DNA of 18,704 nt, from positions 1 through 18,704 of IMG/VR virus record IMGVR_UViG_3300000059_000086. The stretch is one strand, 5' to 3'. Source of the stretch: a virus (Duplodnaviria; Heunggongvirae; Uroviricota; Caudoviricetes). Shown here one piece after another: positions 1,384 through 13,988 of the stretch; position 1 is the first letter of the stretch; each line of letters starts with the position of its first letter. The notes below the pieces were generated by a model, which worked only from the letters and a program-made list of their open reading frames with translations, did not search any database and was not told the origin of the DNA. Position numbers and translations under genes: made by a program.

Positions 1384-1959
1384 ATGTTAACGGCGAACGA
1401 TAACGCGTATTCAGAAGATGATCTCGTTTTGAGTGACTTTATAGGGCGACGAGAATGCTGGACGCAAAAGCGCGAGGAGCTTTATGCAGCGTTAGTTCGT
1501 AAAGGCGTCAACATCGAAACCGCACAGAACGGCGATATGACAGTGGTAAGTGTTGGACTGCACGGCGTAAGCGTGTCAGCAATCAATCATGAGCCGTACA
1601 TTGCGTTATCCGAGTCGATGGTAAGGTTAGTTAAGTTCCTGAAGTACACAGAAGCGAATAACGTGCTCATCGCCAAAAAGAACATCCCGTTCTCATCGGC
1701 CTTTTACTGGATGATGAAGGGGCTTGATGCCCGGCGAACATCATGGCCTAAAGGGAGCTATATATCGATGCTCCGTGGCAGTGTTGGCAGCAAAGAAAAG
1801 CTCGTCGAATTCCTGCCGGAAGAGGCATTCGATATTGTTGAAGGTTGTGATGTGATGGTTATGCCTCGCCTGGTAATGATGAATGGGGATTTACAGGCGC
1901 AGACAGACTGGTTTGCAACTGGTGTTGATATTATCGCTACTGACTGGGAGGTTTTTTGA
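1384..1959 (+). CDS. Hypothetical protein (191 aa) with a C-terminal DUF2829/Tad2-like segment
   Basis: AAGGAG RBS 7 nt upstream; C-terminal blocks FYWMMKGLDARRTSWPKG and DIIATDWEVF parallel the DUF2829-like C-terminus of the 9601-10263 product. Confidence 0.65.
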   Translation: MLTANDNAYSEDDLVLSDFIGRRECWTQKREELYAALVRKGVNIETAQNGDMTVVSVGLHGVSVSAINHEPYIALSESMVRLVKFLKYTEANNVLIAKKNIPFSSAFYWMMKGLDARRTSWPKGSYISMLRGSVGSKEKLVEFLPEEAFDIVEGCDVMVMPRLVMMNGDLQAQTDWFATGVDIIATDWEVF

Positions 1960-2446: not shown

Positions 2447-2839
2447 ATGGAGCAAATCAGTAGCGCCGAAATAGCGGATATCATGATCAGGGCTGACTGC
2501 TATCTGACGGTCACCGAAATCACCAGCCGTGCAAAAGCACAATATCCTCACCTTCATGTGTCGCGCGTAAACGTAAATAACATCATACGTTTTTTTGTTC
2601 GTTCCAGTCGTGCCATTTGCGAAATAGACGACCGCGTATACCCCCGGAAATATTGGCTACATGGCCTGAATGGATACCAGTTCAAGGTGCGCGGGCGCAC
2701 TCCTGAATTCGGTCGGCTGTTGGTGAAAAACACCAACCGAAAGATAGAAGCTCAATTACGAAAGGAGCAGCGTCAGTTGGTGGCGATGACTAACCAGCTA
2801 TGGAACGCCGCCGTGAAAAAACGTGAGGCTTCCCTATGA
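2447..2839 (+). CDS. lpa: Small basic protein (130 aa) immediately upstream of and overlapping pacA; positional equivalent of P1 Lpa (late promoter activator)
   Basis: Stop overlaps the pacA start (ATGA); assignment rests on synteny with P1 lpa-pacA-pacB, not on recognised sequence similarity. Confidence 0.45.
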   Translation: MEQISSAEIADIMIRADCYLTVTEITSRAKAQYPHLHVSRVNVNNIIRFFVRSSRAICEIDDRVYPRKYWLHGLNGYQFKVRGRTPEFGRLLVKNTNRKIEAQLRKEQRQLVAMTNQLWNAAVKKREASL

Positions 2840-4200
2840 CGTTAATTAATTGGGAAGCGCATCGAGCTAAGTTCCTGGAGTTAAGAGAAGAAACCGGGAT
2901 CACCATAAAGGAATATTGCGAGCAGCATGACCTCAGCTTTAACACCGCCAGAAAGCATCTCAATATGAAAAAAAATGAGGTTAAAGCGAAAGCTAAGGCT
3001 GCCGGGAAAAGTACAAAACAGCGCGCAAAAAGCAGCGCCACAAGCCCAAAAAAAGAGCAAAAAAAGGCTGATAAAAACACAGAATTTACAAAAACTGACA
3101 AATCGTTAGCTGGTGGACGATTCCGTGCCATGCCGCAAAAACAAAATGCGGATCACAAAGAAAAGTCAAGTAATAACAACAAGATACACAAGGGTGTAAG
3201 GGGATCATTTTGTGATGAAATGGGGGAAATGATCCCTAAAAGCAGCGAAAAAGCCCAACGAAACAAGGGATCATTGCAAATGATCCCTGACTCATCAGCT
3301 CAAAGCGCCACTTTGCCTGCCACCAACGTCGCCCGTGAGATGATGAAGAACGGCGCGACTGAACATTTACGACTTGCGATACAGATGGCGCAGGAACGAG
3401 CAATTCAGTATCAGGCCATCGTTGACCAGGAAGCGGAACGACTACAGGAAGAGATTGACGCCCTCGGCGATACACAGCCAGAGGGAATGCACCCAGGGCA
3501 GCGTCTTCTCGGCCTAATAAGCGATGCGGCCTACTACATGAATGACTTTATCAGTAGGTTGGCTGCCATCTACCAGACCGAGCAGAAGCTACGCCAGGGG
3601 GATGAAAAACTTGCGCAGGGCGCGCGCCAGCAGGCATTCAGAGAGGCTGAGGCCAGAGAAAAACTGGCGATTACTCGCCTGCAAGCCGAGCAGCGTGGCA
3701 AAGAGATTGAGTATCGCATTGGCGCTGACGCACGCGCCGCCAGAGTTATCGCCGCCGCTATACGTATGCGTGAGCGCGAGGAGCTGGACGATATAGGCGT
3801 TGCTGAATATATCGAGCGGCAGGGCGTCAGTGTCCCGGCTATCCTGGCGGCACGAGCGGCAAAAGCGATCTCACTTCTGGAGCCTCCGGTTTCTGACGTT
3901 AACGATGTTGATGATGAGCAACTGGATAAAGAGGCGAAGCAGTTTGCCGAGCAACAAGCTGGACTCCCACAATGGCTTGCACAACGCCGGGCTGAAGTAG
4001 CGAAAATCGTTGATAGGCTTGGGATGGGGGATTACGACCGGAACGGAGAACGTAAAGCCGGTGAATTTGAGGCCAATGATGAAGACCTGAATATAGACCC
4101 TTCCGCCACGGCTGATATCTACGGTGATTATGACGCGGGGGATACCGGTTTTGATGCTGTAGATGACGAGATTGCGATAGACCAGCCGGAGGATGACTAA
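2836..4200 (+). CDS. pacA: PacA-like terminase small/recognition subunit (454 aa)
   Basis: N-terminal HTH-like segment, long charged coiled region, very acidic C-terminal tail; coupled to a downstream terminase ATPase; contains the GATC hexamer cluster. Confidence 0.75.
   Translation: MTLINWEAHRAKFLELREETGITIKEYCEQHDLSFNTARKHLNMKKNEVKAKAKAAGKSTKQRAKSSATSPKKEQKKADKNTEFTKTDKSLAGGRFRAMPQKQNADHKEKSSNNNKIHKGVRGSFCDEMGEMIPKSSEKAQRNKGSLQMIPDSSAQSATLPATNVAREMMKNGATEHLRLAIQMAQERAIQYQAIVDQEAERLQEEIDALGDTQPEGMHPGQRLLGLISDAAYYMNDFISRLAAIYQTEQKLRQGDEKLAQGARQQAFREAEAREKLAITRLQAEQRGKEIEYRIGADARAARVIAAAIRMREREELDDIGVAEYIERQGVSVPAILAARAAKAISLLEPPVSDVNDVDDEQLDKEAKQFAEQQAGLPQWLAQRRAEVAKIVDRLGMGDYDRNGERKAGEFEANDEDLNIDPSATADIYGDYDAGDTGFDAVDDEIAIDQPEDD
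3151..3285. promoter_or_regulatory. Candidate pac packaging site: five copies of hexamer TGATCC/GGATCA, each containing a Dam GATC
   Basis: GATC at 3151, 3203, 3231, 3269, 3282 in both orientations, two pairs forming AGGGATCATT...AATGATCCCT inverted repeats; the P1 pac site is a cluster of TGATCA/G hexamers inside pacA. Confidence 0.45.
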
Positions 4201-5708
4201 TGGCTGGTGGTCGTAAGATTAAGTGCGTGACCAGTGATCCACGTTGGCGCGATATGGTTATCAGGTATCGATACAACTTTACCCAGGCGGTTGTCGATAT
4301 TTTTGGGATGTTCCCCTCCCACCAGCAGCAGCAGATCATTCAGTCAGTGCAGGAGACGGGGAGCAGGACGACCGTTACGTCCGGACACGGAACGGGTAAG
4401 TCGTCCCTTACCGCGATGTTGCTACTAATTTTTATGATCCTGTTCCCCGACGCCCGCGTCATTATTGTTGCGAACAAAATAGGCCAGGTAAAAACAGGCG
4501 TATTCAAATACGTGAAACAGTTTTGGGCGAATGCTGTTAAGCGCCACGGCTGGTTACAGACCTATTTTGTCCTGTCTGACACCATGTTTTATGAGCGTTC
4601 CCGTAAAGGGATATGGGAAGTGCTCTGTAAAGGTTATCGACTCGGTAACGAAGAGGCACTGGCGGGGGAGCACGCGGAGCATTTACTGCTAATCCTTGAT
4701 GAAGCATCGGGCATATCCGATAAGGCGATTAACGTCATGACGGGGGCGTTAACGCAGAAAGATAACCGTATGCTCATGCTTTCCCAGCCTACGCGTCCAA
4801 GCGGTTACTTTTATGAATCCCACCATTCAAGGGCAAAGGCAGAAGGCAATCCGGAAGGAGTCTGGACGGCAATAGTCCTTAACTCTGAAGAATCACCATT
4901 CGTTGAACCGAGCTTTATTCGTGAGAAATTGCTTGAGTACGGCGGCAGGGATTCGCTGGAGTACATGGTTAAGGTGCTGGGCCAGTTCCCGCGTGCAATT
5001 AACGGGTATTTGCTTGGTCGTGATGAGTGCGACCGCGCCGCACGGCGTAAAGTGTTGCTGGAGAAAGATTGGGGCTGGGTAGCGACCGCTGACGTCGGTA
5101 ATGGTCGCGACAAATCGGTGCTCAATATATGCAAAGTATCCGGTTATCGTGAGAAAAGACGTGTTGTGAACTTTAAGATACTGGAGATGCCAGGCACTAT
5201 GGACCCGTTGGCTTTTGCCGACTTTATCTATAACGAATGCACTCCTGATAAATACCCGAACATCACCATTGCTGTGGATGCTGATGGCTTTGGTTCAGAT
5301 ACGTGTGCGCAGCTTGTCCGCCGTGGTGCTAACCCCGTTCGCATCCGTTGGGGTAAACCTATGTTTGCGCTAAGAGACAGAGAACGCTTTGTCAATCAGC
5401 GTGCTTACGCCAATATTATGGCAGGGGATGCCATTAAATCAGGGCGTATGCGTATCGATAGTGACCCCAAAACTGCCGATCAGGCATCAAAAATCCCGTA
5501 TATGCTTAACGAAGAAGGGAAGGTAGCGATGATGCGCAAGGAGCACATGCGGCAGAAGTTAAACATCAAGTCGCCGGACAGATGGGATACCTACTGCTTC
5601 ACTATGCTGGTGGATTACGTGCCTGCTAATGAAGACATTGGCGCAGAACTCGCAACATTCCGCGATCAGGTGTTGGCAGAAGTGGATATTCCTGATATTG
5701 ACATTTAA
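4200..5708 (+). CDS. pacB: PacB-like terminase large subunit (502 aa), ATPase plus nuclease
   Basis: P-loop GHGTGKSS, Walker B LLLILDEASG, C-terminal acidic cluster (VDADGFGSD) consistent with an RNase H-like nuclease half; GGAGGA RBS; start overlaps the pacA stop. Confidence 0.9.
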   Translation: MAGGRKIKCVTSDPRWRDMVIRYRYNFTQAVVDIFGMFPSHQQQQIIQSVQETGSRTTVTSGHGTGKSSLTAMLLLIFMILFPDARVIIVANKIGQVKTGVFKYVKQFWANAVKRHGWLQTYFVLSDTMFYERSRKGIWEVLCKGYRLGNEEALAGEHAEHLLLILDEASGISDKAINVMTGALTQKDNRMLMLSQPTRPSGYFYESHHSRAKAEGNPEGVWTAIVLNSEESPFVEPSFIREKLLEYGGRDSLEYMVKVLGQFPRAINGYLLGRDECDRAARRKVLLEKDWGWVATADVGNGRDKSVLNICKVSGYREKRRVVNFKILEMPGTMDPLAFADFIYNECTPDKYPNITIAVDADGFGSDTCAQLVRRGANPVRIRWGKPMFALRDRERFVNQRAYANIMAGDAIKSGRMRIDSDPKTADQASKIPYMLNEEGKVAMMRKEHMRQKLNIKSPDRWDTYCFTMLVDYVPANEDIGAELATFRDQVLAEVDIPDIDI

Positions 5709-5745: not shown

Positions 5746-6783
5746 TTACCAGAGTTTTGCCGCGTACATCGTTTGTGTGAATGTGTACCCATAGCGTTCT
5801 TCAACGCTTTTACCGTATTTTTTCCTGGCTTCAGTAAGGCGGATGCCTGTCAGGTCATCGCCGGAGGCAATCATAACTTCCAGTAGTTCCAGGTCCATTT
5901 TATCCAGCCTTGCCATTGCATCTTTAGCTTCTTGAATTTTCCGGCTAACGATCTGGTGTATGGCTGGATCGGCTTCGGACAGCATTTTCTCTGATTTGTT
6001 TTTTAAACTCTGATTGCGGATATCAATGTTTCTCAGGATATATGACTTCACGACATAGCTTGGCTGCTGCTTTTCCAGGTCACGAACCCGATAAAGGTCA
6101 AATTCACCGAGAAGGCCGCACGGAAGCGGTTTAATGCCAGTGTAAATGGTAAGGGTGCGGCGCTCACCAACGTTGTTAACAATGGGGATCTCAGTGTTTG
6201 CTTTTCTTGCAAAGATCAGCGCACCGTGCGTACCCACTCTGAAGCGAGAAAGTCCATTGTTGCCCTCGATATTGGTGGTAATCACAACATCGGTATAACC
6301 TTCTTTTCTTGCGCGGTATACCTCGCCCTCACGTTCAGCGGCGAAGAATCTGCGTTCTTCTTCAAGTGCACCGACAACCTGTGAAAATATCCTGTTTTTC
6401 ATGCTTTTCTTTATAGTTTTATCGTATTTTTTCAGCAGGTCTTCGCGCGTGAATGTTCTCGTTGTGGTTGCGCTTTGCATAACGATATGCGTACTCTGAT
6501 TAGTATCCTCAACAATGAATGGGATCGGTAAATAAACCGACTCAACAATGTTTGAGGCTTTGTCATCATCCTTGCGACACAGATCAACAAAGGCTTTCCA
6601 TTCGGCTATGCATTTTTCAGCTTCTTCTAATACAGCCGGATCATGTGTTAATGCAACATGGCGAAATTCCTCGCCAACGTAACTGGTATCATGGAAAACA
6701 GAGTTTGCGACCACCAGCTCTTTCCACCGTTCAGCGGTTTGCAGGAACCGTTTGTACTCATTCTCGATCGACTTCTTACTCAT
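5746..6783 (-). CDS. 346-aa protein in the c1 position of the immC region (between pacB and the recombination site); possible immunity repressor, identity unconfirmed
   Basis: ATG at 6783 with AGGAA RBS (the track's longer ORF starts at an upstream in-frame codon); convergent with pacB; operator-like 13-mers lie just upstream; no HTH or C1 similarity recognised by eye. Confidence 0.8.
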   Translation of the reverse strand: MSKKSIENEYKRFLQTAERWKELVVANSVFHDTSYVGEEFRHVALTHDPAVLEEAEKCIAEWKAFVDLCRKDDDKASNIVESVYLPIPFIVEDTNQSTHIVMQSATTTRTFTREDLLKKYDKTIKKSMKNRIFSQVVGALEEERRFFAAEREGEVYRARKEGYTDVVITTNIEGNNGLSRFRVGTHGALIFARKANTEIPIVNNVGERRTLTIYTGIKPLPCGLLGEFDLYRVRDLEKQQPSYVVKSYILRNIDIRNQSLKNKSEKMLSEADPAIHQIVSRKIQEAKDAMARLDKMDLELLEVMIASGDDLTGIRLTEARKKYGKSVEERYGYTFTQTMYAAKLW

Positions 6784-6796
6784 TATTCCTACTCGA

Positions 6797-6809
6797 TTTA
6801 GTTTTCTAA
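6797..6809 (-). promoter_or_regulatory. Operator-like 13-mer TTAGAAAACTAAA (minus-strand reading), 14 bp upstream of the 346-aa gene start
   Basis: Variant of the 13-mer at 2355 and 8194. Confidence 0.4.
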
Positions 6810-6887
6810 CATAAAAGTCCTGTGACAAATTTATGCTGAATAACAAGGTGAGTAAAGGATAAAACCGCTTTTTTTTGATTGTTCCTA

Positions 6888-6980: not shown

Positions 6981-7012
6981 TAACTTTAAATAATTGGCAT
7001 TATTTAAAGTTA
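6981..7012. other. rox: rox-type site-specific recombination site: 14-bp perfect inverted repeats around a 4-bp spacer (TAACTTTAAATAAT-TGGC-ATTATTTAAAGTTA)
   Basis: Perfect palindromic arms; equals the reverse complement of the published rox site as remembered; lies about 150 bp upstream of the Cre-family recombinase gene. Confidence 0.85.
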
Positions 7013-7164: not shown

Positions 7165-8193
7165 ATGGGTGAACTAGTTATCTCCGGCGGTTCTGGCGGT
7201 TTTCTGCGCGATATTGGCACCGAATACCAGGAAGCTGCAAAAAACTTTATGCAGTTCATGAACGACCAGGGAGCTTATGCCCCAAATACACTTCGTGATC
7301 TCCGTCTGGTCTTTCATTCCTGGGCGCGGTGGTGTAATTCGCGCCAGCGCCCCTGGTTCCCGATTACGCCGGAAATGGCCCGCGAGTATCTTCTCCAGTT
7401 GCATGAAGCCGATCTGGCTTCGACCACCATTGATAAGCACTATGCCATGCTTAACATGCTGCTTTCGCAATGCGGCCTACCGCCGCTGTCAGACGATAAA
7501 AGTGTATCTCTGGCCATGCGGCGCATCCGGCGCGAAGCGGCAACGGAAAAAGGCGAGCGTACAGGCCAGGCTATACCGTTGCGGTGGGATGATCTGAAAT
7601 TGCTCGACGTATTGCTGTCCCGTTCCGAGCGGCTGGTGGACCTGCGCAATCGGGCGTTTCTCTTCGTGGCATACAATACCCTGATGCGTATGTCAGAAAT
7701 CTCGCGCATCCGTGTCGGAGATCTGGACCAAACAGGTGACACTGTAACGCTGCATATTTCACACACGAAGACCATCACGACCGCCGCCGGACTTGATAAG
7801 GTGCTTTCTCGTTGCACTACCGCCGTGCTAAACGACTGGCTGGAGGTGTCCGGACTTCGTGAACATCCGGACGCGGTGCTATTCCCGCCAATACACCGCA
7901 GTAATAAAGCCAGAATCACGACAACGCCTCTTACTGCTCCTGCGATGGAGAAAATATTCAGCGATGCCTGGGGATTGCTGAATAAGCGAGATGCCACGCC
8001 GAACAAAGGAAGATACCGGACGTGGACAGGTCATAGTGCGCGTGTTGGTGCGGCAATTGATATGGCTGAGAAACAGGTGTCAATGGTCGAGATCATGCAG
8101 GAAGGCACATGGAAAAAGCCCGAAACACTTATGCGATATTTGCGCCGTAGCGGGGCATCCGTTGGTGCAAATAGTCGCCTGATGGATTCCTGA
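7165..8193 (+). CDS. dre: Cre-family tyrosine recombinase, Dre-like (342 aa)
   Basis: Cre-like blocks along its length: WARWC, RNRAFLFVAYNTLMRMSEISRIRVGDL, HSARVGAAIDMA, and the tyrosine block ETLMRYLR; adjacent rox site. Confidence 0.93.
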   Translation: MGELVISGGSGGFLRDIGTEYQEAAKNFMQFMNDQGAYAPNTLRDLRLVFHSWARWCNSRQRPWFPITPEMAREYLLQLHEADLASTTIDKHYAMLNMLLSQCGLPPLSDDKSVSLAMRRIRREAATEKGERTGQAIPLRWDDLKLLDVLLSRSERLVDLRNRAFLFVAYNTLMRMSEISRIRVGDLDQTGDTVTLHISHTKTITTAAGLDKVLSRCTTAVLNDWLEVSGLREHPDAVLFPPIHRSNKARITTTPLTAPAMEKIFSDAWGLLNKRDATPNKGRYRTWTGHSARVGAAIDMAEKQVSMVEIMQEGTWKKPETLMRYLRRSGASVGANSRLMDS

Positions 8194-9600: not shown

Positions 9601-10263
9601 ATGGTCAGCACTTTTCAGGTGTTCCCCAAATACAAATGCCACAGCATCATTCGGGCATCGAAAATCAAAGATATTGTTATTGTCGGCGAAGATTATGCGC
9701 CCATTTTTGGCAGTATCGAAGTCGTTGAGCCAAAAGGAATGACGCTTCGTGTTGATGGTGTGTTCTTGGAAAAATTCCGCCCGCAAATAGGAGGATATCT
9801 CGTCACTGCTGAAAATGGCTATCTGGTCTATGTGCCAGAGAAAGCATTTGAAAAATGCTATAGCCGGGTTAACGACGCCTTCGAAAATGGGACATTGCTC
9901 AGCATTGAAGGTCACAATGGGGTGACATTCATTACAGCCAGGGACGTAACTATTTCTGCTGGCGGTATCGCTACTCTACAAGAAGAAATCGACCTTGAAG
10001 CAGCCGACTTTTCTGACGCGCTGATGTGGCTGAAGGATGGCAAGAAAGTTGCTCGACGCGGGTGGAACGGCGAAAACCAATTCTGCTGGCTGGTTCCTGA
10101 AGGACAGTACCCGGCACGAATGGAAGCCATTAAGGGATATTTCCCCGGCGACCTCGTTCCGTATGGTGCTTATTTCGCCTTAAAAAATGCACAAGGTGTA
10201 GTTGTTCCGTGGGTGCCTTCAGTTGGCGACCTGCTGGCCTGTGACTGGTTTGTTGTGGAGTGA
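9601..10263 (+). CDS. Two-domain protein (220 aa): unknown N-terminal domain fused to a C-terminal DUF2829/Tad2-like domain
   Basis: AGGAAGG RBS; C-terminal blocks ALMWLKDGKKVARRGWNGEN and PWVPSVGDLLACDWFVV match the remembered DUF2829 signature. Confidence 0.7.
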   Translation: MVSTFQVFPKYKCHSIIRASKIKDIVIVGEDYAPIFGSIEVVEPKGMTLRVDGVFLEKFRPQIGGYLVTAENGYLVYVPEKAFEKCYSRVNDAFENGTLLSIEGHNGVTFITARDVTISAGGIATLQEEIDLEAADFSDALMWLKDGKKVARRGWNGENQFCWLVPEGQYPARMEAIKGYFPGDLVPYGAYFALKNAQGVVVPWVPSVGDLLACDWFVVE

Positions 10264-12170: not shown

Positions 12171-12200
12171 AAGCCCGCCTGGTTGAGCGGGCTTCTTTTC
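12171..12200 (+). terminator. Rho-independent terminator (AAGCCCGC-ctggttga-GCGGGCTT followed by CTTTTC)
   Basis: 8-bp GC-rich stem and T-run immediately after the operon stop; sits between convergent operons. Confidence 0.7.
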
Positions 12201-12579
12201 AAATATTGGAACCATATAGTTCACGTAGTTTCTCCGCTACTGAAGATACGGGGATTTCACCAGTTGCAGCCCCAACCGCAAGTTCCACCAGCACGGGAGA
12301 ATCATATACCTGTATACCGTTACGGCGTAGAAATAGCAGCGCACTGTTTAGCGCGGTACGCTTATTGGCATCATTGAATATATGCCCTCTCGCAGTAGCC
12401 ACCAGGTAGGTGGCGGAGACTTCGAAAAGGTCGGTGATCTCTTCGTAGGCAACTCTGGCCTGAACTCTCCCGATAATGGCCTCTGCCCTACCCGGATCTG
12501 ACATTCCCGGCAGGCCGCCGTAGCGGTTTATATTCGCATCATGAAGCGCAATAAGTTCTTCCGGTGATATATGCCTCAT
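12199..12579 (-). CDS. doc: Doc toxin (Fic/Doc family kinase) of the phd-doc addiction module
   Basis: Doc signature [11 protein letters not shown]; near-identical in character to P1 Doc; start overlaps the phd stop (TAATG). Confidence 0.93.
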
Positions 12580-12800
12580 TATCGGTTAACCAGTTCCTTG
12601 TTGGTGGAGTCCAGAGTGTCAAACAGGGATGCAAATTCGGCATCCAGCGCCGCTTTTTTGTAGGCTTCAAAAGTAGCCTTGTTGACAATTACTGCTGGCT
12701 CACGGCCTCTGCGGGTGATTTCAACCTCTTCCCCGGCTTCAACATTGTTGAGCACTTCAGAAAGGTTGCCGCGCGCGGTACGGAAGTTAATGGATTGCAT
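12579..12800 (-). CDS. phd: Phd antitoxin
   Basis: Protein [39 protein letters not shown]... matches P1 Phd as remembered; GAGGTG RBS; start taken at the ATG two codons inside the track ORF. Confidence 0.93.
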
Positions 12801-12807
12801 AAACACC

Positions 12808-12832
12808 TCGTGTACTCGTTATGTGTACACAA
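12808..12832. promoter_or_regulatory. phd-doc promoter/operator region with GTGTAC-containing palindromes (CGTGTACTCG ... TGTGTACACA)
   Basis: Palindromic GTGTACAC immediately upstream of the phd start; consistent with autoregulation by Phd/Doc. Confidence 0.45.
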
Positions 12833-12872
12833 CTATAAACTTCACAGGCATAAAGCACCAGCACTTTGCAGC

Positions 12873-13262
12873 TTAAATCACCGGACAATCATCAAATTCC
12901 CCACTTCGGGCATCATTGATGACATGAGTGATCACACCAAAAACAGCATTACTGCCCGTGTATCCATCGTCATCTACTGGTAACGCCTCTTTCTTCCCGG
13001 TTCTTAAATCCTCCAGGTGCTGGCGCGGATACTTCCGGTATCTTTTTACGCGATATTCCCCCTCCATAGCGCATATAAGCAGTGAACCATCAACCGGAGT
13101 AAGTGAGGAATCAACCACCAGCAAAGCACCCTGCAATATTCCCTCACGGTGATGGCTGTCTGCCGCCCGCATGAAGTAGGTTGCTGAAGGATGTCTGATT
13201 AGTTGCTGATCAAGAGAAATACGGCTCTCTGCATAATCCGCCGCAGGAGAAGGGAAGCCCAT
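12873..13262 (-). CDS. humD: HumD, UmuD'-like SOS mutagenesis protein (S24 peptidase fold)
   Basis: GFPSPAADYxExRIxLxQxLIxHPSATYF block typical of UmuD; begins at the position equivalent to processed UmuD'. Confidence 0.88.
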   Translation of the reverse strand: MGFPSPAADYAESRISLDQQLIRHPSATYFMRAADSHHREGILQGALLVVDSSLTPVDGSLLICAMEGEYRVKRYRKYPRQHLEDLRTGKKEALPVDDDGYTGSNAVFGVITHVINDARSGEFDDCPVI

Positions 13263-13280
13263 AGCGTTTTACCTCAATAA

Positions 13281-13300
13281 TACTGTTTATTCATACAGTA
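13281..13300. promoter_or_regulatory. LexA (SOS) box TACTGT-TTATTCAT-ACAGTA upstream of humD
   Basis: Exact CTGT-N8-ACAG with flanking TA/TA, 19 bp upstream of the humD start. Confidence 0.7.
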
Positions 13301-13326
13301 TACATTGAAAAGGCATAGTTTGTGAA

Positions 13327-13352
13327 AGCGGGGTTTGTACGCGCGCCCCGCT
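13327..13352 (-). terminator. Hairpin (AGCGGGG-loop-CCCCGCT) just downstream of the lxr-like stop
   Basis: 7-bp GC stem; no clear U-tract, so possibly a partial terminator or RNA-processing structure. Confidence 0.3.
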
Positions 13353-13357
13353 GGGGG

Positions 13358-13753
13358 CTAATCACATTGGTGTGTGGACTTACCATTCATATATTGCAAA
13401 ATGCTTGATTCGATTTTTTCATTAAAATCATAATGATGCTCCTCAAGGACAAAGCGCGCCTTATTGTTGCGCACAATAACCTCCGCCAACGGCTTAACCA
13501 GAGATGTGGAGTTAGAGATTTTCTCGGCGCGCTCTACATCGCTTTTAAACGTTACGATGAAGTGCTGGTGGCCTGGTGACCGGCGACACAACATGCGTCG
13601 CACTTCCACGGTATCTTCACGGCCTTGGGTATGTACAGGAAAGCTATCAACCACCGCTGTATTGGTGCGGATTGTCTGCATAGAACGCGTGTTGTCGTGA
13701 TAGTTAAGCATGTTTAATGTCTCCCCCATCTTGCCGTTATTTTTTTGGTGCAT
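13358..13753 (-). CDS. lxr: Lxr-like protein (position as P1 lxr between hot and humD)
   Basis: Synteny hot-lxr-humD-phd-doc as in P1; start uncertain (13753 overlaps the hot 3' end; alternatives at 13729 or 13711). Confidence 0.55.
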
Positions 13754-13988
13754 CCTCGTTCTGATACACCGGATCGCTCCCTTTTGGCAACTGGAGGCTT
13801 AACTGCCGGTAGTGCCGTAGCCGTTCCATGAAATAGGCGCGCAGGTTTTCCGGTTGCTCACGGGCCACCTGCTCTGCAATCACAGGTATATTCAGCCGTT
13901 CTTTGTAAGCAACGCCGCTGGCGGCAAGGTCTACGTTCACCTTGTCTCGCTCTTCCTGGCTTTTAGCTGCTATATTTCGATCTGACAC
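13737..13988 (-). CDS. hot: Hot, homologue of DNA polymerase III theta subunit (HolE)
   Basis: Block [36 protein letters not shown] parallels E. coli theta; GTG start with perfect AGGAGG RBS at 7-nt spacing. Confidence 0.88.

What the first reader, a model, noticed from the sequence alone, without database searches (positions are those of the whole stretch)
3151..3285. Cluster of five Dam-site hexamers (TGATCC/GGATCA) inside pacA: candidate pac site with a variant hexamer
P1 packaging starts at a pac site inside pacA built from TGATCA/G hexamers whose Dam methylation controls cleavage. Here five GATC hexamers cluster within about 135 bp of pacA, all of the form TGATCC in one or the other orientation, with two pairs arranged as inverted repeats. 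No further GATC occurs in the adjacent 100 bp on either side.
Basis: partly seen in the sequence, partly recalled or inferred. Interest (0 to 1): 0.5.

Follow-up and report, generated by a model that had tools for sequence, protein, structure and literature searches.

The report
Candidate D6-type phage packaging site
Five conserved Dam-methylation hexamers (TGATCC) inside the small-terminase gene pacA of a D6-like phage-plasmid are very probably its DNA packaging start site, a diverged counterpart of the phage P1 pac site.

Summary
Five GATC lie at 3151, 3203, 3231, 3269 and 3282. All sit in TGATCC/GGATCA hexamers, four of them within the 9-mer AATGATCCC, which forms two perfect inverted pairs. 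The nearest other GATC are 253 bp upstream and 582 bp downstream.

GATC density alone is weak evidence (scan P about 0.03 in the window, 0.29 over a 90-kb relative). The hexamer type is strong evidence (P about 2e-5), and the 9-mer occurs 4 times against 0.2 expected.

The window is a D6-like P1-family phage-plasmid carrying lpa, pacA, pacB, c1, rox and a Dre-like recombinase. In 30 distinct D6-clade pacA sequences, 148 of 150 GATC are kept at fixed spacing. They sit in the most variable part of the gene and persist through amino-acid changes.

GATC clusters occupy the same pacA zone in all 11 lineages sampled from enterobacterial and Vibrio hosts, including the mapped P1 pac. Each lineage has its own hexamer: TGATCA, TGATCC or YGATCG.

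The element family carries a Dam gene, and rox lies 3.7 kb downstream, as lox does in P1. The best reading is a Dam-gated pac site. It is a variant of P1 pac because it lacks the second hexamer cluster and a clear IHF site. Cleavage itself is untested.

The parts
2836..4200 (+). pacA, the DNA-recognition (small) terminase subunit, 454 aa, which contains the site
   Evidence: phrog_1711 E = 2.6e-167, the same family as P1 PacA. 74% aa identity to D6 PacA. 20% identity, collinear, to P1 PacA.
3150..3288 (.). Candidate pac site: cluster of five TGATCC-type Dam hexamers
3150..3155 (-). Site 1, GGATCA (TGATCC on the minus strand); codons Asp-His
   Evidence: GGATCA is invariant in 30 of 30 distinct D6-clade sequences, while the next synonymous position varies, CAT or CAC.
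3201..3210 (-). Site 2, GGGATCATTT (reverse complement of AAATGATCCC)
   Evidence: GATC kept in 29 of 30 sequences. The codon changes GGA (Gly) to AGA (Arg) in D6-type sequences without loss of GATC. It is the inverted partner of site 3.
3227..3237 (+). Site 3, AAATGATCCCT; codons Met-Ile-Pro
   Evidence: The 10-nt island AAATGATCCC is invariant in six representatives of the subclades. AATGATCCC is kept in 29 of 30 distinct sequences and GATC in 29 of 30.
3266..3275 (-). Site 4, AGGGATCATT
   Evidence: GATC kept in 30 of 30. The flanks differ by lineage: GGATCA, GGATCT or AGATCA. It is the inverted partner of site 5.
3278..3288 (+). Site 5, AAATGATCCCT; codons Met-Ile-Pro
   Evidence: AATGATCC is invariant in 30 of 30.
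4200..5708 (+). pacB, the large terminase subunit (ATPase and nuclease), presumed to cut at the site together with PacA
   Evidence: 56% identity to P1 PacB. Matches phrog_2, terminase large subunit.
2897..2902 (-). Possible outlying sixth hexamer, GGATCA, at pacA nt 62-67
   Evidence: GGGATCAC is kept in 30 of 30 D6-clade sequences while the next codon's third base varies. It is absent from the Enterobacter relative. This is weak evidence.
3083..3102 (+). Conserved island AATTTACAnAAAnTGACAA, 48 bp upstream of site 1. It could belong to the site or be a protein motif (EFTKTDK).
   Evidence: Near-invariant in the D6 clade and recognisable in Enterobacter sp. JBIWA008. Its role is undetermined.
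6981..7012 (+). rox recombination site, 3.7 kb downstream of the cluster. Its proposed role is cyclisation of the first headful.
   Evidence: Exact 32-bp match to the annotated D6 rox.
7165..8193 (+). Dre-like tyrosine recombinase that acts on rox
   Evidence: 94% identity to D6 Dre. Matches Pfam Phage_integrase.

Best explanation
The cluster at 3150-3288 is the packaging initiation (pac) site of this D6-like phage-plasmid.

Proposed mechanism, by analogy with P1:
1. Late in lytic growth PacA, through its N-terminal helix-turn-helix domain, binds the five TGATCC-type elements on concatemeric DNA. The full element is about 9 bp, AATGATCCC.
2. PacA recruits PacB, and the complex cuts within or next to the cluster.
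3. Cutting occurs only when the GATC adenines are methylated on both strands. Methylation comes from host Dam or from the element's own Dam.
4. Headful packaging then runs through pacB and c1 towards rox, so the terminal redundancy of the first headful carries rox at both ends for Dre-mediated cyclisation.

Shown here: the sites exist, they are non-random, and they are held at the DNA level at fixed spacing. The same zone of pacA carries Dam-site clusters across the PacA family, including the mapped P1 pac. PacA, PacB, Dam, rox and Dre are all present in the P1-like layout.

Inferred: PacA binding, the cleavage position, the dependence on methylation and the packaging direction.
For: 1. Non-random motif. 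Five of five hexamers are TGATCC-type (P about 2e-5). AATGATCCC occurs 4 times against 0.20 expected. This is the densest GATC cluster in the 90-kb relative.

2. DNA-level selection.
- In 30 distinct D6-clade sequences, 148 of 150 GATC are kept.
- All 20 GATC columns are near-invariant, against 42% of the other linker columns (Fisher p = 8e-8).
- All third-codon positions inside the GATCs are near-invariant, against 37% in the background. The synonymous positions just outside them vary.
- GATC survives Gly-to-Arg replacement at site 2 and again at site 4.
- The spacings 52, 28, 38 and 13 bp never change, although the linker is only about 60% identical between subclades.

3. Family-wide recurrence. 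Nt 150-540 of pacA holds 4-9 GATC against 0.8-1.9 expected in all 11 lineages sampled from enterobacterial and Vibrio hosts. The GATCs fall in different reading frames and amino-acid contexts. The set includes P1, where the annotated cleavage sites lie between its hexamer sets. The Burkholderia element has 1 against 1.3 expected.

4. Hexamer type follows PacA lineage. TGATCA occurs in P1, Pantoea, E. kobei, Leclercia and Citrobacter. TGATCC occurs in the D6 clade and Enterobacter JBIWA008. YGATCG occurs in Vibrio.

5. Context. PacA and PacB are homologues of the P1 proteins. A Dam-family methylase is present in the closest relative (TIGR00571, 231.6 bits), 79.6% identical to D6's and 69.5% to P1 Dmt. 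rox lies 3.7 kb downstream, against pac to lox of about 4.0 kb in P1.

6. Anecdote. One 23.6-kb public contig (L029) starts at the base right after the GATC of site 1 and runs towards pacB.

The P1 mechanism itself is taken from PMC10028697, which summarises Sternberg and Coulby and Skorupski et al.
Against: - No terminus, cleavage or binding data exist for this element or, in any text I could read, for D6.
- The architecture differs from P1. The upstream ('left') hexamer cluster present in P1, Pantoea, E. kobei, Enterobacter and Vibrio is absent in the D6 clade. In P1, as I recall from the literature, both hexamer sets are needed for efficient cutting.
- No IHF consensus within one mismatch lies in 3100-3330.
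- GATC density alone is not significant on a genome-wide scan (P about 0.29).
- Sites 3 and 5 both encode Met-Ile-Pro, and sites 2 and 4 encode Gly/Arg-Ser. Part of the conservation could therefore be a protein-level repeat.
- Two natural sequences each lack one GATC.
- The contig-end observation is a single case. None of the 14 metagenome contigs ends in pacA.
Confidence: 0.72

Rival explanations
1. The GATCs are a by-product of a conserved peptide repeat in the PacA linker (Gly-Ser ... Met-Ile-Pro, twice) and have no role as DNA.
For: Sites 3 and 5 both encode M-I-P, and sites 2 and 4 encode G/R-S. Both MIP motifs are also present in the Enterobacter PacA, which is 53% identical.
Against: The synonymous positions inside the GATCs (Asp GAT, Gly GGA, Ile ATC) are conserved everywhere except two single sequences that each lost one GATC by a T-to-C change. 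Adjacent synonymous positions vary. Gly-to-Arg replacement keeps GATC. In other lineages the clustered GATCs sit in all three frames and encode other residues, such as DH, ND and LI. The spacing is fixed in an otherwise hypervariable linker.
Confidence: 0.08
2. The cluster is a Dam- or SeqA-sensitive regulatory element rather than the cleavage site. Examples would be a PacA autoregulatory operator, or a methylation-timed control of pacA-pacB expression.
For: Clustered GATC are classic SeqA or Dam regulatory targets; in P1 they occur at oriR and in the cre promoter (my own knowledge). The element carries its own Dam.
Against: No sigma-70-like promoter lies in 2700-3600 on either strand. The position matches the mapped P1 pac in the homologous gene. 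The hexamer type follows the PacA lineage, as expected for the terminase's recognition element. A regulatory role could coexist with pac function.
Confidence: 0.1
3. The two inverted repeats act as hairpins, either in pacA mRNA, as a terminator for antisense transcription, or as DNA cruciforms. The GATC content would then be incidental.
For: The single strand 3140-3300 folds into two 10-bp hairpins with z = -3.28. The site 4/5 palindrome scores as a terminator-like site on the minus strand.
Against: Across 14 diverse relatives the two helices show no compensatory change. Pairs outside the GATC core simply break, in 7 of 14 or 10 of 14 sequences. In D6-type sequences the arms are degenerate while the GATCs stay. 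Site 1 has no partner.
Confidence: 0.03
4. The clustering is a chance event, or a vestige of an ancestral pac site that no longer functions.
For: The GATC-only scan statistic is weak (P = 0.034 in the window, 0.29 genome-wide). The left cluster seen in relatives is missing.
Against: The hexamer-type and 9-mer statistics argue against chance. GATC retention of 148 of 150 at fixed spacing, across subclades only about 60% identical in this region, argues against a vestige.
Confidence: 0.04

Closest known systems
Bacteriophage P1 pac site (Sternberg and Coulby 1987-1990; Skorupski et al. 1994; summarised in PMC10028697; annotated in NC_005856)
   Same: - It lies inside pacA, in the linker just after the N-terminal helix-turn-helix domain.
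- It is built from several GATC-containing hexamers sharing the core TGATC.
- It is recognised by a homologous PacA/PacB pair.
- The element encodes a Dam orthologue of P1 Dmt.
- A Cre-type recombination site lies about 4 kb downstream in the same orientation.
   Different: - The hexamer is TGATCC (extended form AATGATCCC), not TGATCA/G. It is asymmetric and used in both orientations, forming two inverted pairs.
- There are five sites in one 139-bp cluster (gaps of 52, 28, 38 and 13 bp), rather than 4 + 3 sites flanking a spacer of about 90 bp.
- No IHF consensus within one mismatch is present.
- PacA is only 20% identical.
- Cleavage and methylation dependence are untested here.
Enterobacter sp. 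JBIWA008 plasmid pJBIWA008_2 pacA (53% PacA identity): an uncharacterised relative
   Same: Seven of its eight sites are the same TGATCC/GGATCA hexamer. It has the same MIP-encoding sites and the same NTARKHL motif in the PacA N-terminus.
   Different: It has a P1-like two-part layout: 3 sites at 12-bp intervals (nt 157-181) plus 5 sites (nt 380-471). The window's clade has only the right-hand part.
pac sites embedded in small-terminase genes of other headful phages (P22 gene 3, SPP1 gene 1, Sf6); from my own knowledge
   Same: The recognition site for the small terminase lies inside its own gene, and packaging is headful from that point.
   Different: Those sites are not built from Dam sites and are not known to be gated by methylation. 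Their small terminases are unrelated in sequence to PacA.

Membership tests
P1-type (Dam-hexamer) pac site | Located within the coding sequence of pacA, the recognition subunit of a PacA/PacB pacase | tested here: met
   The cluster occupies pacA nt 315-453. PacA matches phrog_1711, as P1 PacA does, and PacB is 56% identical to P1 PacB.
P1-type (Dam-hexamer) pac site | Several copies of a GATC-containing hexamer (P1: seven TGATCA/G in about 161 bp) | tested here: met
   Five TGATCC/GGATCA hexamers lie within 137 bp, non-random and conserved. The sixth base differs from P1.
P1-type (Dam-hexamer) pac site | Two-part layout: two hexamer sets (4 and 3) flanking a central cleavage region | tested here: inconclusive
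   The left-hand set seen in P1, Pantoea, E. kobei, Enterobacter and Vibrio is absent. The five sites could still split as 1 + 4 (52-bp gap) or 3 + 2 (38-bp gap). The cleavage position is unknown.
P1-type (Dam-hexamer) pac site | IHF binding site between the hexamer sets | tested here: not met
   No WATCAANNNNTTR match within one mismatch lies in 3100-3330. P1's annotated site has one mismatch. By eye, TAACAACAAGATA (3174-3186) is a two-mismatch candidate, which is weak evidence.
P1-type (Dam-hexamer) pac site | Cleavage by pacase at the site, generating the packaging end | not testable with these tools
   The only hint is one public contig that starts right after the GATC of site 1.
P1-type (Dam-hexamer) pac site | Cleavage requires full Dam methylation of the hexamers | not testable with these tools
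   The evidence is indirect. A Dam-family gene is present in the closest relative and in D6. GATC, not merely the flanking bases, is the invariant core. The Burkholderia relative lacks a cluster.
P1-type (Dam-hexamer) pac site | Position upstream of the Cre-type recombination site, so that the first headful carries it in its terminal redundancy | tested here: met
   An exact rox lies at 6981-7012, 3.7 kb downstream on the pacB side. In P1, pac to lox is about 4.0 kb. Packaging direction is inferred.

The most novel reading that the evidence does not exclude
D6-type phage-plasmids use a one-part, partly dyad-symmetric pac site. In this reading PacA reads an asymmetric 9-bp element (AATGATCCC) arranged as two inverted pairs plus a solitary site, and cutting occurs next to site 1.

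The sixth base of the hexamer (C, A/G, or the Vibrio YGATCG form) would be set by the PacA recognition helix. NTAR-K-HL goes with TGATCC and NTxR-R goes with TGATCA.

Co-resident P1-like and D6-like elements would then have mutually exclusive, Dam-gated packaging specificities.
Probability: 0.25. Interest if true: 0.55.

Novelty: new variant of a known kind. Interest (0 to 1): 0.4.

Why it matters
If confirmed, this defines the packaging signal of the D6 group of phage-plasmids, which are common in E. coli and Salmonella (110 PLSDB plasmids matched this pacA by DNA, 140 by protein).

It would allow D6-based phagemid or transduction vectors that do not cross-react with P1 pac, as was engineered for P1 in PMC10028697.

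It also corrects the view that the D6 subgroup (P1-g2) lacks pacA and is therefore less likely to include generalized transducers like P1 (PMC7969092).

More broadly, Dam-site clusters in the pacA linker appear to be a family-wide rule across Enterobacterales and Vibrio, with lineage-specific hexamers. That gives a natural series for studying how a small terminase reads methylated DNA.

Tried and rejected
- Literature. The two primary D6 papers (Sauer and McDermott 2004, PMC534624; Gilcrease and Casjens 2018, PMC5800970) and the P1 genome paper (PMC523184) are not held. Full-text searches found no description of a D6-type pac site. Prior description therefore cannot be excluded. The D6 GenBank records carry no pac feature.
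- Genome-contig scan with PacA: no confirmed relatives.
- Contig ends as a proxy for termini: one case in IMG/VR (L029), none among 14 metagenome loci. This is too thin to count as mapping.
- IHF consensus scan: nothing within one mismatch in the cluster.
- Promoter scan: none. The single terminator-like hit is the site 4/5 palindrome itself.
- Hairpin hypothesis: rejected for lack of covariation.
- Pfam and NCBIfam give no family for PacA or PacB. Only PHROGs does.
- No solved structure exists for any PacA relative.

Full report
**What the window is.** The window is part of a D6-like, P1-family phage-plasmid.
- Its genes include lpa (2447-2839; Pfam BPP1_LPA), pacA (2836-4200), pacB (4200-5708) and a c1-type repressor ORF on the minus strand (5746-6846).
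- An exact D6 rox site lies at 6981-7012, followed by a recombinase 94% identical to D6 Dre (7165-8193).
- The pacA-pacB segment is 80.8% identical in DNA to phage D6.
- pacA is 99.3% identical to E. coli plasmid pEC361_3 (NZ_AP027414), and 96.5-97.2% identical to six other Escherichia plasmids.
- Most of the window aligns with about 90-kb non-mobilisable plasmids of E. coli and E. marmotae.

**The observation.** Five GATC lie at 3151, 3203, 3231, 3269 and 3282.
- The hexamers are GGATCA, GGATCA, TGATCC, GGATCA and TGATCC.
- Sites 2 to 5 share the longer element AATGATCCC and form two perfect 10-nt inverted pairs.
- The nearest other GATC are at 2898 and 3867.

The statistics are uneven:
- For GATC alone, a 135-bp stretch with five sites arises in 3.4% of uniform placements in the window, and in 29% over a 90-kb genome.
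- Five of the window's 14 TGATCC-type hexamers falling together has P about 2e-5.
- The 9-mer occurs four times against 0.20 expected, and no shuffle out of 200 reaches four.
- In the complete 90-kb relative this is the densest GATC cluster, and it holds 4 of that genome's 5 copies of the 9-mer.

**Conservation.** I collected pacA from 27 IMG/VR loci, 14 metagenome loci, D6 and an E. fergusonii plasmid. This gave 30 distinct sequences over the first 600 nt.
- They align without gaps there. The cluster lies in the least conserved part of the gene: 27-45% invariant columns per 60-nt block over pacA nt 181-420, against up to 85% further downstream.
- Subclades are about 60% identical across pacA nt 181-480.
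- Even so, 148 of 150 GATC are retained. The two losses are single T-to-C changes in single sequences.
- All 20 GATC columns are near-invariant, against 42% of the other linker columns (Fisher p = 8e-8).
- Third-codon positions inside the GATCs are all near-invariant, against 37% in the background. The synonymous positions just outside vary: CAT/CAC, TCA/TCT and CCC/CCT/CCA.
- At site 2 the codon switches from Gly to Arg with GATC kept, and the same happens at site 4.
- The spacings of 52, 28, 38 and 13 bp never change.

These points indicate selection on the DNA itself, not only on the peptide.

**Comparison with P1.**
- P1's annotated pac lies in pacA. The hexamers are at gene nt 194-234 (four) and 324-353 (three), with an IHF site and the cleavage sites at nt 275-284 between them.
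- Window PacA and P1 PacA are collinear homologues at 20% identity and fall in the same PHROG family. PacB is 56% identical.
- On a protein alignment, the window's cluster falls in the same post-HTH linker. It corresponds to the right-hand P1 set and a little beyond.

**The wider family.** I examined more distant pacA genes from the following sources:
- Enterobacter sp. JBIWA008
- Enterobacter kobei
- Citrobacter
- Leclercia
- Pantoea
- two Vibrio plasmids
- a Burkholderia plasmid

In every enterobacterial or Vibrio lineage, nt 150-540 of pacA holds 4-9 GATC where 0.8-1.9 are expected from the rest of the locus. The layout is usually two sets:

| Lineage | Left set + right set |
|---|---|
| P1 | 4 + 3 |
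| E. kobei | 4 + 1 |
| Pantoea | 7 + 2 |
| Enterobacter sp. JBIWA008 | 3 + 5 |
| V. alginolyticus | 3 + 3 |
| V. parahaemolyticus | 5 + 3 |

- The GATCs fall in different reading frames and encode different residues.
- The Burkholderia element has 1 against 1.3 expected. I believe its host group lacks Dam, and its small subunit may not be a true PacA, so it is a weak control.
- The hexamer type is lineage-specific. It is TGATCA in P1-like lineages, TGATCC in the D6 clade and Enterobacter JBIWA008, and YGATCG in Vibrio.
It also tracks a Lys/Arg difference in the putative recognition helix, NTARKHL against NTxRR. This amounts to one phylogenetic event, so it is only suggestive.

**What differs from P1.**
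- The D6 clade has no left-hand set.
- It has no IHF consensus within one mismatch in 3100-3330.
- Its sites are asymmetric and used in both orientations.
- Two further conserved features might belong to the site. One is a GGATCA at 2897-2902, kept in 30 of 30 sequences. The other is an island, AATTTACAnAAAnTGACAA, at 3083-3102. Neither is resolved.

**Context supporting a Dam-gated packaging role.**
- The closest relative encodes a Dam-family methylase (TIGR00571, 231.6 bits against a cut-off of 114.85). It is 79.6% identical to D6's and 69.5% to P1 Dmt.
- rox lies 3.7 kb downstream on the pacB side, mirroring pac to lox in P1.
- One 23.6-kb public contig begins at the base immediately after the GATC of site 1 and extends towards pacB. 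This is consistent with a physical end but is a single case.

**Rivals.**
- A purely protein-level repeat (GS...MIP) is contradicted by the synonymous-site pattern and by the frame-independence seen in relatives.
- A hairpin role is contradicted by the absence of any compensatory change in 14 diverse sequences, despite a favourable fold in this lineage.
- A promoter is not detectable.
- A regulatory Dam or SeqA role cannot be excluded, and it could coexist with pac function.

**Verdict.** Function, cut position and methylation dependence remain inferences from P1 (PMC10028697).

I could not read the primary D6 papers, so I cannot rule out that the cluster has been described before. One accessible paper states that the D6 subgroup has no pacA homologue (PMC7969092), which the present data contradict.

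Noticed in passing
L029:1-30 (IMGVR_UViG_2537562191_000021), equivalent to window 3155: This 23.6-kb contig starts exactly one base after the GATC of site 1 and runs towards pacB. It could be a physical packaging end or a chance assembly break.
   Followed up: partly
window 3083-3102: An island, AATTTACAnAAAnTGACAA, is conserved in the otherwise hypervariable pacA linker 48 bp upstream of site 1. It is also recognisable in Enterobacter sp. JBIWA008. Whether the constraint is on the DNA or on the protein (EFTKTDK) is unresolved.
   Followed up: partly
window 2897-2902: A sixth GGATCA in the N-terminal domain of pacA (codons Gly-Ile-Thr) is kept in 30 of 30 D6-clade sequences while the next synonymous position varies. 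It is absent from the Enterobacter relative.
   Followed up: partly
L038:10955-11926 (NZ_AP027414 pacA annotation), equivalent to window 3229-4200: The plasmid record annotates pacA as a shortened gene starting at the ATG inside site 3. This leaves the HTH domain and most of the cluster unannotated. It is probably a gene-calling artefact.
   Followed up: no
window 2836-4200 compared with neighbouring genes: PacA is far more diverged from D6-type relatives (about 74% aa) than PacB (about 92%), Dre (94%) or rox (identical). PMC7969092 reports that the D6 subgroup lacks pacA altogether, probably because of this divergence.
   Followed up: partly
window 2836-2839 and 4200: lpa overlaps the pacA start by 4 bp, and pacA and pacB overlap by 1 bp. 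There is therefore no intergenic space for a P1-style late promoter (LPpac) directly upstream of pacA. In P1 an 85-bp spacer holds it.
   Followed up: no
window 1384-1959 and 9601-10263: Two ORFs carry a Tad2-like (Thoeris anti-defence 2) domain, with Pfam E = 4.4e-10 and 1.6e-22. RefSeq names the relatives 'MW1434 family type I TA system toxin' and 'DUF2829'.
   Followed up: no
window 12199-13988 (minus strand): This stretch holds a Doc/Fic toxin ORF (12199-12579), an S24 peptidase-like ORF (12873-13262) and a DNA polymerase III theta-like ORF (13737-13988), as in P1 accessory regions.
   Followed up: no
L036:2654-2740 (Pantoea) and L055:1491-1546 (V. parahaemolyticus): The left-hand GATC sets of these relatives are strictly periodic. 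Six sites in Pantoea and four in V. parahaemolyticus sit at 12-bp intervals, encoding runs of Asp-His or Asn-Asp. This suggests phased binding of a PacA oligomer.
   Followed up: no
PacA N-terminus, window 2836-2970, compared with relatives: The putative recognition helix reads NTARKHL in all TGATCC lineages. It reads NTARR, NTVRR or NTCRR in the TGATCA lineages. This is a possible determinant of specificity, but it rests on one phylogenetic split.
   Followed up: no
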